Below are positions 54,001 through 57,000 of a DNA stretch of 64,000 nt, in pieces. The position numbers were made by a program. The DNA lies in assembly GCF_003018115.1 (NCBI RefSeq), contig NZ_CP027458.1; one strand, given 5' to 3'. The number at the start of each line of letters is the position of its first letter. Within the stretch, counting starts at the first letter, position 1. The stretch is from Escherichia coli. GTDB lineage: Bacteria > Pseudomonadota > Gammaproteobacteria > Enterobacterales > Enterobacteriaceae.

Positions 54001-57000
54001 GTATAGGGAAATACGGAAAATCCGTACTGCAGCGCCAGTTGTTTCAGTACCGGGTCAAACTGGTGACAGTACGGACATCGCCCCTGCATGAACAGCACCA
54101 CTTTCCAGTCAGCAAGATTGACCTGAGTTCCGTTGCTGAGGCGGAACCAGCGGGTTGCTGCTTTCTCCTGTCGCGCCTGTGCATCTGCTGCCGGCTGAGT
54201 TGTCCGTGCGGCCATTCCCTCCGGATGCCAGAGTCGCTCGATTTCCGCACGTGTGGATGCCTGTGTACAGCTGGCCAGAAAAAGCAGGACAACGGACAGC
54301 GATTTAACGGGAAACATGTTCATCATCATTATCCTTCCGTTCTCTCAGTAACAACTGCTGTCTGACTTCCAGTGCCTCACGCTCTTCCTGACTGACACGG
54401 GCAATCCACGTATCAAGCACACGATATGCTCCCCACAGGACCAGAACAGCCGAAATAACCTGAGCCAGGATATATGCCATCCAGGGTTTGCTGTTAACCA
54501 GACGGGCAACAATATGGAACCAGACACCCAGGGAAAATACCCACATTCCCGTAATATCAAGTCGGGGTAAAGAGAATTTATATTTGCACATAAATATATC
54601 CTGTTTGTAATATTTGCAACACTCAGCAGGATGACAAATAAAAACCTGACTAATTATTATTCCGACATACTCATTTCATTTTCACATTGAATATACAAAA
54701 AACAGAGAAACACCCATAAAACAAACAGAGCAACATAAAATGCTGTCGTCATTAAAAAATCATCCAGAAATCTGAGAAGCCAGATACCTGCTGCAATGAT
54801 TAGGGCAAGCACAGACAAGTACAATAACCTGCTGTTACGCTCGTAAATAAAATAAAGCATTACCATTACAACAGACAGCGCCACATACATTACCCCGGTC
54901 ACACTCAGAATTAACACATTCATCAGCCAGCTATAATAGCGATTCATACTGACATCCAGCTCCGGAAAGCTCATAAAAGCCAGTAAGGTCAGTAAAATAA
55001 CCGCAACACCAGACGCGATTAACCATCTTTCAGGAATACTACTATTTTCTTTATCCATACAGAATAAAACCATACTTAACAAACAACATGAATTAAAAGC
55101 CATTCACCATCAGGTGTGGGGACAGAAAAAAGTTATCTCTGATTGTCTTTTACTCTGTAAATGAGTTCATTTACATATTAACAGGGCATTATTTCATTAT
55201 GGTTTCTGATGGCTGGAGTAACCAGTAGAATATAATCATTCCTGCACCAGAAAACACTGCGGCAACAGCGAGCCACAAACGCTTATGCTCACCTTCTGAT
55301 ATGCCTGAAAAATATCCTGTATGGAGTAGCAGCAGCAACCATGACAACACTCCTGCCAAACCCAGCAGGGCAGGAGGGATATGCCACAGTTCATATTTCA
55401 TAATAACAATACCTTCTGCCATCATCATGGACAGGGTGCAAACAACAAAACAGTCCCATGAAAAAAAACACCTGTCAGCAGCAAGGAAAATCACTGTCAG
55501 TGACATCACTGTCACCTGGGCCAGCAATAAAGGCCATAAAGAAATAAAATTCATTTAAACGACCTCTTTAAAAATTCGGTTTAAAGTCTTCAGAAACGTT
55601 CAGGAACTGTTTTGCCAGGTCGTCCTGAGAAATAAAGCCGTATGATAACGGGCGAACACTACCCTGTTTCGGGTCAACCAGCATCATGGCCGGGAAATAT
55701 TTCACACCGAGGCGCTGCGCCTGCCCCTGGTCAGTCCGGGAGTCCGGCAACAGTGGATTAATCACGCCATCCACGGAAACGGGAATAACACTCAGACCAT
55801 ACGTATCCCGGAAGCCATTAATGACCTGCGCCAGCTGCCCGTCGATGGGGGCCTGCCCCCGGTAAAAAAACATAATGCCGTATTGTTCAGCCAGTTTCGC
55901 AATGGCCTGTCGCTGCTGTGCCTGGTCTGCCGCCAGCTGGTTCCGTACCGTGCCGTTGTAATGGCTGTACTGCAGGTTATAGTCCAGTTCGGGATGTGCC
56001 AGCATGGCCTTTTTAGCACTCATGGTGAAAAGCCCGGCCTGCTGAGTCCAGTAATTCTGCAGCCGGAAATATTTCACAAAATTATCCACGCCGGGATACA
56101 GAATGGCTTCGTACAGCGCCCGCTTTGTTGCCGTCTGCAGCGCGGTCAGTTTCTGCATAATATCCGGCTCCTGACGGGGAGCTGCTGGTACTGGTTTATT
56201 TTCTTTTTCCTTCGGATTTATTTTCTCGTTATACCACTGCCAGCCTGCATCTTTCCCTGACGCCGGAAAAATAAAGCAGCAGAGTAACAGCGGCAGTAAT
56301 GCTTTATTCATCTTCATTCCTTTCATCACTTTTTCTTTCATCAGGTTTCTGCAGGTCAGCCAGGGCCGAAAAGCAAAAATACAGAATAAACAGGAGCACA
56401 CCGGAGTAAACGATAATGAAAGCAGCAGCAAGCACCCCGCCTGCCGTGGTTTCTTTTACCGTATCCCACGACCAGATAATTACCGGGGAAATGACAATTG
56501 CTGTAATAACAAGCCGGATAAGAAAATCAACAAGACGATTCGACGTGAATATGACTTTCATTATTTTCCCGACCTTACTGCCCCACCTGTTTCAGCTGAC
56601 CGGCAATCTGCTCTTTCACTTTTTCGGTCAGCGCACCATTATCCGGGATTTTCTGGTTATTCATCAGGTCTTCGTAGAAGTTAGTGAAGTCCAGCTGGTC
56701 GAACTTAATACGCTGCAGTTCATCCACGGTTATTCCCCGGCAGTCAGGACTTTTTGCGCTGCCAAACCCGATACGCAACTGCCCGTTACGCCCCTGCTGC
56801 TGGACTATCTGCGCCAGCTTCGAATCAAACTGGCAGTAACTGCGCTTTTTCTGCAGACAGACACCCAGCACTTTCCGGGAGCAGAACTCGCCCACACTCA
56901 CCGTCAGTTTGTTGTCCTTTGCCTTTCCCAGCGCCTTTTCTTCGCTGTTGCACTTCGCCAGTCCCACATCCTGACCCCAGCCACCATCCTTACAGCAGTT

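What the first reader, a model, noticed from the sequence alone, without database searches (positions are those of the whole stretch)
54657..55554. Two small membrane-protein genes in the trbA/artA position
Between traF and traQ, F encodes trbA and the antisense artA. Here two same-strand hydrophobic ORFs (121 aa and 148 aa) occupy the region, and the 148-aa one lies where artA would be but in sense orientation. This may be a lineage-specific replacement.
Basis: partly seen in the sequence, partly recalled or inferred. Interest (0 to 1): 0.3.

Follow-up and report, generated by a model that had tools for sequence, protein, structure and literature searches.

The report
Two orphan membrane genes replace trbA/artA
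In this F-like conjugative plasmid, the non-essential trbA/artA genes between traF and traQ are replaced by two uncharacterised genes for small four-helix membrane proteins; this is a rare swap in a slot already known to vary, and nothing suggests new biology.

Summary
On the tra (-) strand, between traF and traQ, lie ORF1 (121 aa, 55554->55189) and ORF2 (maximal 148 aa from 55103; probably 133 aa from the conserved Met at 55058; stop at 54657). Both are very hydrophobic with four predicted helices.

Both look like real genes. dN/dS is 0.25 for ORF1 and 0.3-0.45 for ORF2. Indels stay in frame, and ORF2 relatives are 133 aa in three divergent subgroups.

Neither is detectably related to TrbA, to ArtA or to the other (NCBIfam TrbA model, hhalign, BLAST). 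No trbA or artA exists anywhere in the window.

The interval from the traF stop to about codon 5 of traQ is an AT-rich swappable slot. At least five gene families are mixed there: TrbA, ORF1, ArtA/ArtA-like, ORF2, and an antisense 381-aa gene. The ORF1+ORF2 combination occurs in about 1% of F-like plasmids. TrbA occurs in about 77%.

ORF1 co-occurs with TrbA in some plasmids. It also sits, at 93% identity, in the cargo region of 41-kb IncP-1-like plasmids, so it is portable cargo rather than a pilus part.

Function is unknown. No family, defence or structure library gave a match. Low interest.

The parts
55568..56311 (-). traF (left conserved flank). Its stop codon at 55568-55570 is the left edge of the variable segment.
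   Evidence: Pfam TraF 2.7e-68; RefSeq traF in the identical record NZ_CP027581.1. Alignment shows identity to F up to the stop codon and divergence after it.
55189..55554 (-). ORF1: 121-aa protein with four predicted transmembrane helices (WP_024213665.1, 'hypothetical protein'). Its ATG lies 13 nt after the traF stop, preceded by AGAGG.
   Evidence: TM-like segments at 8-26, 34-52, 59-77 and 95-113; AF2 helices 3-26, 33-53, 61-83, 91-120. dN/dS 0.25, 31 of 53 variable sites at codon position 3, in-frame 3-nt indels. Found in 109 plasmids by tblastn.
55104..55188 (-). 85-nt AT-rich ORF1-ORF2 spacer containing an imperfect hairpin (55147-55184). Its 3' half is the conserved leader that travels with ORF2-family genes.
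   Evidence: Inverted repeat I1: 18-nt arms, 83% complementary. RNA fold -21.4 kcal/mol, z = -2.1. The hairpin is invariant in 7 plasmids, so there is no covariation evidence; about 75 nt upstream of ORF2 is shared with B-type relatives. No promoter or terminator above the shuffle expectation.
54657..55103 (-). ORF2: maximal ORF of 148 aa. The probable protein is 133 aa starting at 55058 (WP_024213666.1, 'hypothetical protein'), with four predicted transmembrane helices.
   Evidence: The family alignment has an invariant FP.PD.S..YYSWLMN motif. dN/dS is 0.45 among close relatives and 0.3-0.5 to relatives at 50% and lower identity, all 133 aa. Found in 53 plasmids. Only 6 clusters at 50% identity in 1.84 billion proteins.
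54304..54591 (-). traQ (right conserved flank). Homology among all variants resumes only at about codon 5 (about 54577).
   Evidence: Pfam TraQ 9.5e-38; alignment of the traQ 5' regions.
54577..55567 (-). The exchangeable traF-traQ accessory segment as a whole. It is AT-rich: ORF1 43% GC and ORF2 38% GC, against about 52% in flanking tra genes.
   Evidence: The flanks match 3699 PLSDB plasmids, but only 32-37 cover the whole segment.

Best explanation
The traF-traQ interval of F-like transfer operons is a swappable accessory slot. In this IncFIA/FIB plasmid it holds two sense-strand genes for small four-helix inner-membrane proteins, where F has trbA (sense) plus artA (antisense).

Shown:
- Both ORFs are conserved coding sequences.
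- Each belongs to its own narrow family of Enterobacteriaceae plasmid genes.
- Neither shows detectable homology to TrbA, ArtA, the other ORF, or any annotated family.
- The segment is bounded by the traF stop and about codon 5 of traQ.
- Other plasmids fill the same slot with other mixtures of TrbA, ORF1, ArtA-like, ORF2-like and an antisense 381-aa gene.

Inferred:
- The genes are read as part of the long tra transcript. ORF1 starts 13 nt after the traF stop behind an AGAGG, and no promoter or terminator stands out.
- The slot contents are exchanged by homologous recombination in the conserved flanks.
- The two proteins are dispensable passengers, not parts of the pilus or secretion machine.

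My best guess at their role is roughly 25% likely. They insert in the donor's inner membrane whenever transfer genes are on and give a protective, immunity- or exclusion-like benefit that does not depend on the type of mating apparatus. This guess is stronger for ORF1 than for ORF2.
For: - Anatomy and coding status.
- No homology to TrbA or ArtA: NCBIfam TrbA hits F TrbA at 218 bits and neither ORF; hhalign gives 2.3% and 0.1%; BLASTP to ArtA gives E = 0.54; tblastn of TrbA and ArtA against the window finds nothing.
- Modularity: p72 has traF, ORF1, a 60-bp duplicate of the traF 3' end, trbA, ORF2-like, then the antisense 381-aa gene. pVirR1 is the same with ISEc8 inserted. L006 and L013 lack ORF1. 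L020-L022 and Salmonella L004 have ORF1 plus an antisense ArtA-like gene.
- Frequencies in PLSDB: flanks in 3699 plasmids, TrbA in 2853, ArtA in 1476, ORF1 in 109, ORF2 family in 53, whole cassette in 37. The whole cassette is in 42 of 5426 complete E. coli genomes.
- Dispensability: ORF1 is frameshifted in L009 and ORF2-like is interrupted in L014.
- Portability: ORF1 is 93% identical (aa) in the cargo region of 41-kb IncP-1-like (TrfA, Trb, Kle/Kfr) plasmids, next to a resolvase. The shared DNA is essentially the CDS, and that variant's protein cluster has 574 members.
- AT-rich composition, like F trbA and artA.
Against: - No experiment or transcript data were available. Co-transcription and membrane insertion are inferred.
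- ORF2 has no recognisable ribosome-binding site at any candidate start, and its dN/dS is only moderately below 1 (0.3-0.45).
- The functional guess has no direct support. PADLOC, PHROGs, Pfam, NCBIfam, PDB sequence and Foldseek searches were all empty.
- Every ORF2 relative found lies in this one slot. That fits a role tied to the F-type apparatus as well as it fits a passenger role.
- ORF1 has the same size and helix spacing as TrbA, and the same predicted N-out topology. It could therefore be a functional analogue of TrbA.
Confidence: 0.7

Rival explanations
1. Both ORFs are extremely diverged members, or functional equivalents, of the TrbA backbone family. On this reading nothing has been replaced; the same gene has drifted beyond recognition.
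For: - ORF1 occupies exactly the trbA position, with a start 13 nt after traF.
- ORF1 is similar in size (121 vs 115 aa) and has almost the same four hydrophobic segments: 8-26, 34-52, 59-77, 95-113 against 8-26, 34-52, 58-76, 91-109. Basic residues sit in loops 1 and 3 in both.
- ORF1 pairs with an antisense ArtA-like gene, just as TrbA pairs with ArtA.
- ORF2 residues 68-103 weakly resemble TrbA residues 9-43 (pairwise E = 0.001; hhalign E = 0.021).
Against: - The TrbA HMM gives no hit at E<=1.
- hhalign probabilities are 2.3% and 0.1%.
- TrbA does not appear among the matches to the ORF2 profile in 1.84 billion proteins.
- ORF1, TrbA and ORF2-like all coexist in p72 and pVirR1.
- ORF1 also lives on IncP-1-like plasmids that have no F-type system.
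Confidence: 0.1
2. ORF2 is one half of a two-gene module with the convergent antisense 381-aa secreted, membrane-anchored protein, for example as its immunity or partner protein. In this window it survives as an orphan after the partner was lost.
For: In every B- or C-type relative examined, the ORF2-like gene's 3' end overlaps a convergent 381-aa-type gene (321 aa in L014): L003, L006, L013, L015, L014 and the metagenomic L019. The window and its close relatives lack this partner.
Against: - The 381-aa protein has no family, defence or structure match, so a toxin or enzyme role is unsupported.
- 32 of 33 A-type ORF2 copies are intact without the partner.
- Physical linkage alone could reflect shared history.
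Confidence: 0.12
3. One or both ORFs are non-coding accidents in an AT-rich spacer.
For: ORF2 lacks a Shine-Dalgarno sequence. There are no database family matches. Some copies of each gene are disrupted.
Against: - No shuffle of 5000 gave two such ORFs on one strand.
- dN/dS is 0.25 and 0.3-0.45.
- ORF1 shows a third-position bias, and its indels stay in frame.
- ORFs persist at 44-50% amino-acid identity with conserved length and helix pattern.
- The antisense 85-aa shadow ORF is hydrophilic and is not length-conserved in Salmonella.
Confidence: 0.03

Closest known systems
F plasmid TrbA (NCBIfam NF010266 / PRK13712; also the R100 type WP_000556796.1)
   Same: Sense-strand gene directly after traF. 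About 115-120 aa with four hydrophobic helices and basic loops 1 and 3. AT-rich. From my own knowledge (Kathir & Ippen-Ihler 1991, Plasmid 26:40), it is not needed for transfer.
   Different: No detectable sequence relationship to ORF1 or ORF2. TrbA is in about 77% of F-like plasmids, against about 1-3% for these ORFs. TrbA and ORF1 can sit side by side.
F plasmid ArtA (antisense 104-aa hydrophobic protein between trbA and traQ)
   Same: ORF2 lies in the part of the interval that artA occupies in F. It is also small and hydrophobic.
   Different: Opposite strand, four helices instead of two, and no similarity. True ArtA relatives (32-37% identity) exist next to ORF1 in other plasmids but not in this window.
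Variable accessory genes of F-like (MOBF12) transfer operons, as catalogued in 'Five Shades of F' (PMC5102898)
   Same: That survey reports that trbA, trbG and artA co-occur, are among the least conserved tra genes, and mark only a subset of F-like plasmids. The present case is one more filling of such a slot.
   Different: The paper does not describe the ORF1 or ORF2 families. It does not report the exchange of ORF1 with IncP-1-like plasmids either.

Membership tests
TrbA (NF010266/PRK13712) | Scores above the curated cut-off (164 bits) of the TrbA profile | tested here: not met
   F TrbA scores 218 bits and p72 TrbA 198 bits. ORF1 and ORF2 give no hit at E<=1.
TrbA (NF010266/PRK13712) | Profile-profile similarity to an alignment of F-, R100- and 50%-type TrbA sequences | tested here: not met
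   hhalign gives ORF2 2.3% probability (21 columns) and ORF1 0.1%. The alignments are shallow (Neff about 1.5).
TrbA (NF010266/PRK13712) | Sense gene immediately downstream of traF, about 115 aa, four transmembrane segments | tested here: met
   Met for ORF1: start 13 nt after the traF stop, 121 aa, helix positions nearly superimposable on TrbA. ORF2 is second in the slot, 133 aa, and has the opposite charge-predicted orientation.
TrbA (NF010266/PRK13712) | Orthologous replacement implies it does not co-occur with TrbA | tested here: not met
   ORF1, trbA and ORF2-like are all present in p72 and pVirR1. trbA plus ORF2-like are present in L006.
ArtA | Encoded on the anti-tra strand and similar to F ArtA | tested here: not met
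   ORF2 is on the tra strand. BLASTP gives E = 0.54. tblastn of ArtA and ArtA-like proteins against the window finds nothing.
F-type (MPF_F) mating-apparatus component | Confined to, and conserved across, F-type transfer systems | tested here: not met
   ORF1 is in about 3% and ORF2 in about 1.4% of F-like plasmids. ORF1 also lies in the cargo region of MPF_T IncP-1-like plasmids. All ORF2 relatives found are in this slot, so for ORF2 only the 'conserved across' half fails.
Known anti-phage defence, immunity or small-transporter families (PADLOC, PHROGs, Pfam including colicin-immunity and SMR models) | Significant match to any such profile | tested here: not met
   No hits at E<=0.1 apart from composition-level noise (MFS_1 at E = 0.06, 12.7 bits). 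PDB sequence and Foldseek searches were empty.
Expressed inner-membrane protein of the tra operon | Transcribed from the tra promoter, translated, and inserted in the inner membrane | not testable with these tools
   Only indirect support: same strand, tight spacing, no promoter or terminator excess, and hydropathy.

The most novel reading that the evidence does not exclude
The traF-traQ slot is a dedicated exchange site where conjugative plasmids trade small membrane 'protection' genes that are switched on together with the pilus. ORF1, shared between F-type and IncP-1-type plasmids, would be an apparatus-independent shield, for example against pilus-dependent phage entry, bacteriocins or envelope stress. 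ORF2 would be an orphan immunity partner of the convergent 381-aa secreted protein carried by rival plasmids.
Probability: 0.1. Interest if true: 0.5.

Novelty: new member of a known kind. Interest (0 to 1): 0.2.

Why it matters
It matters only modestly. The result shows that the least-understood corner of the F transfer operon is a recombining slot, not a fixed trbA/artA pair. At least five unannotated gene families fill it, and one of them crosses between unrelated conjugation systems. This gives annotators names and boundaries for two recurrent 'hypothetical proteins'. It also gives experimenters natural knock-out and swap variants for asking what, if anything, these tra-embedded membrane proteins do. 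It does not change how conjugation is understood.

Tried and rejected
- Pfam, NCBIfam, PHROGs and PADLOC scans of both ORFs found nothing.
- Word-indexed searches of 5.8 billion proteins, with single sequences and with an ORF1 alignment, found only Enterobacteriaceae 'hypothetical proteins'.
- An exhaustive HMM search of 1.84 billion representatives with the ORF2 profile found 6 clusters, none of them TrbA.
- AlphaFold2 models were low confidence (pLDDT 61 and 67). Foldseek against the PDB gave no match better than E = 0.77, all generic helix bundles. The afdb50 library was unavailable.
- PDB sequence searches were empty.
- Rfam found nothing in the region.
- The promoter and terminator scan was no better than shuffles.
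- The spacer hairpin has z = -2.1 but is invariant, so covariation cannot be tested.
- The antisense 85-aa ORF inside ORF1 was rejected as a shadow ORF. It shares the wobble position with ORF1, is hydrophilic, and shrinks to 62 aa in Salmonella.
- The weak TrbA-like stretch in ORF2 was rejected as evidence of homology after hhalign.
- Literature searches found no description of these genes. The Frost et al. 1994 review is not held.
- I had no structure-prediction jobs left for TrbA or the 381-aa protein.

Full report
**What is there.** The tra operon runs on the - strand of the window. Reading in that direction, the genes are traN (58479-56575), trbE (56561-56304), traF (56311-55568), ORF1 (55554-55189, 121 aa), an 85-nt spacer, ORF2 (55103-54657, maximal 148 aa), traQ (54591-54304) and trbB. 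The stretch is 100% identical to E. coli 2013C-4282 plasmid unnamed2 (NZ_CP027581.1, IncFIA/FIB, MOBF, MPF_F). In that record the two ORFs are annotated as hypothetical proteins WP_024213665.1 (121 aa) and WP_024213666.1 (133 aa).

ORF1's ATG lies 13 nt after the traF stop, behind AGAGG. ORF2 has three candidate ATGs (55103, 55073, 55058), and none has a convincing ribosome-binding site. Both proteins are very hydrophobic (GRAVY above 1.0). Each has four hydropathy peaks and four helices in low-confidence AlphaFold2 models (pLDDT 61 and 67). In 5000 shuffles of the interval, none gave two ORFs of at least 120 aa on one strand.

**Are they genes?**
- ORF1: among eight alleles, dN/dS is 0.25, compared with 0.12 for traF. 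Of 53 variable sites, 31 are at codon position 3. Three alleles carry 3-nt in-frame indels, and one (L009) is frameshifted. A Salmonella relative at 44% identity keeps the length and the motifs SLWPLL, LSMM.AE, HTGYFS and SGAGM.
- ORF2: dN/dS is 0.45 among close alleles, 0.22-0.31 within the B subgroup, and 0.3-0.5 between subgroups at 50% or lower identity. All three subgroups are exactly 133 aa when started at the aligned Met, which favours the 55058 start. One Salmonella copy is interrupted.
- The antisense 85-aa ORF inside ORF1 shares ORF1's wobble positions, is hydrophilic, and is not length-conserved, so I treat it as a shadow ORF.

**Relation to trbA and artA.** F has trbA (115 aa, sense) and artA (104 aa, antisense) in this interval. 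R100 has trbA only. The tests for a relationship were negative:
- The NCBIfam TrbA model scores F TrbA at 218 bits and neither ORF at E<=1.
- Profile-profile comparison against six TrbA sequences spanning 50-100% identity, including the R100 type, gives 2.3% (ORF2) and 0.1% (ORF1). ORF1 against ORF2 gives 0.4%.
- A short ORF2/TrbA resemblance (pairwise E = 0.001) does not survive this test.
- tblastn finds no TrbA, ArtA or ArtA-like sequence anywhere in the window.

The replacement reading is therefore supported, and the 'divergent trbA' reading is not. One caveat remains. ORF1 resembles TrbA in size, helix spacing and charge-predicted orientation, so functional analogy cannot be excluded.

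**The slot is modular.** All variants are identical to F up to the traF stop codon and again from about codon 5 of traQ. Everything between differs. The fillings seen were:
- trbA + artA in F
- trbA alone in R100 and pEG356
- a 50%-type trbA + artA
- ORF1 + ORF2 in the window and L007-L012
- ORF1 + an antisense ArtA-like gene in L020-L022, and in Salmonella L004 with the 44% ORF1 relative
- trbA + ORF2-like + an antisense 381-aa gene
- ORF2-like + the 381-aa gene
- ORF1 + a 60-bp duplicate of the traF 3' end + trbA + ORF2-like + the 381-aa gene in p72
- the same as p72, with ISEc8 inserted, in pVirR1

Counts in PLSDB are as follows:

| Element | Plasmids |
|---|---|
| traF/traQ flanks | 3699 |
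| TrbA | 2853 |
| ArtA | 1476 |
| ArtA-like | 42 |
| ORF1 | 109 |
| ORF2 family (33 A-type, 20 B-type) | 53 |
| Whole ORF1-ORF2 segment | 37 |

Among complete E. coli genomes, 42 of 5426 carry the whole segment, and 121 of the 122 places found are on plasmids. The segment is AT-rich (ORF1 43% GC, ORF2 38% GC) against about 52% in flanking genes. F trbA (41%) and artA (34%) are similarly AT-rich.

**ORF1 is portable.** A 93%-identical ORF1 lies in the cargo region of 41-kb IncP-1-like plasmids (TrfA, TrbB-L, TraI/J/K, KleE, KfrB/C; MOBP, MPF_T). It sits 84 nt upstream of a serine recombinase. The shared DNA runs from 5 nt before the ATG to the stop, and in p72 for a further 40 nt or so beyond it. 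A relative of these plasmids keeps only the 3' 185 nt. The protein cluster for this variant has 574 members. This argues that ORF1's role does not depend on the F-type apparatus.

ORF2 is different. In 1.84 billion representative proteins it has only six clusters. Every relative located lies directly after traF or trbA. That includes a distant metagenomic one (L019), which is again convergent with a 381-aa-type gene.

**Function.** Nothing annotated matches. Pfam, NCBIfam, PHROGs, PADLOC, PDB sequences and Foldseek against the PDB were all empty or at noise level. Rfam and the promoter/terminator scans add nothing. The literature held here mentions the slot only in general terms: 'Five Shades of F' notes that trbA, trbG and artA co-occur, are poorly conserved, and mark a subset of F-like plasmids (PMC5102898). 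From my own knowledge, insertion mutants of F trbA and artA transfer normally (Kathir & Ippen-Ihler 1991).

I therefore commit to the following model:
- The two genes are dispensable passenger genes for inner-membrane proteins.
- They are co-expressed with the transfer operon.
- They are exchanged by recombination in the conserved flanks.

As a low-confidence guess (about 25%), they give a protective, immunity- or exclusion-like benefit. The main rivals are functional TrbA analogues (0.1), ORF2 as an orphan partner of the 381-aa protein (0.12), and non-coding ORFs (0.03).

**Verdict.** The pair is a new, unnamed member of a known kind, namely the variable non-essential membrane-protein genes of F-like tra operons. 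Interest is low (0.2).

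Noticed in passing
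L003 2792-3937 (-); also L006, L013, L015, L014, L019 795-1343 (-): A gene of about 381 aa on the anti-tra strand, with a signal-like N-terminus and a C-terminal membrane anchor plus basic tail. It converges on every B- or C-type ORF2-like gene and overlaps its 3' end by about 74 nt. It has no Pfam, NCBIfam, PADLOC or PDB match. From memory only, the stretch DCDLNVYLLMDALKQAG...APGHAFLAF recalls a transglutaminase-like Cys-His core. It is absent from the window.
   Followed up: partly
L020 2857-3168 (-), L021, L022, L004 3370-3693 (-): F-like plasmids that carry ORF1 but not ORF2 have an antisense ArtA-like gene (103-107 aa, 32-37% identical to F ArtA) overlapping ORF1's 3' end. It is missing from the PLSDB gene tables shown for L020-L022, though it is listed as a hypothetical protein in L004. 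It occurs in 42 PLSDB plasmids.
   Followed up: partly
L018 (NZ_CP075702.1) 32020-32385; L024: ORF1 (93% aa identity) sits in the cargo region of 41-kb IncP-1-like plasmids, just upstream of a serine recombinase. A related plasmid retains only the 3' 185 nt of the gene.
   Followed up: partly
L003 1926-1985: In p72, a 60-bp duplicate (88% identity) of the traF 3' end lies between ORF1 and trbA. This is a scar showing that ORF1 entered by recombination at the end of traF.
   Followed up: partly
window 58492-58725 (+): A 77-aa ORF on the anti-tra strand, in the gap before traN. It has a CxxC...CxxC zinc-ribbon motif followed by a hydrophobic helix. Pfam zinc-ribbon hits are sub-threshold (E about 0.007). 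It is a second possible antisense gene inside the tra operon.
   Followed up: partly
window 58714-59094 (-), 60013-60291 (-), 46978-47457 (-): Three further 'hypothetical' genes occupy other gaps of the tra operon (trbC-traN, traU-trbC, traT-traD). None has a Pfam match. They suggest that several slots of this operon carry passenger genes.
   Followed up: no
window 55147-55184: An AT-rich imperfect hairpin (18-nt arms, 83% complementary, 2-nt loop) lies in the ORF1-ORF2 spacer. It is invariant in seven plasmids. The fold z-score is -2.1, and it does not look like a terminator.
   Followed up: partly
L017 1823-2158; hits H195, H198, H218, H220: Some GenBank records label the F-type ArtA protein 'toxin ArtA'. 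From my own knowledge this is probably a name collision with the unrelated Salmonella ArtAB toxin. No toxin evidence was seen here.
   Followed up: no
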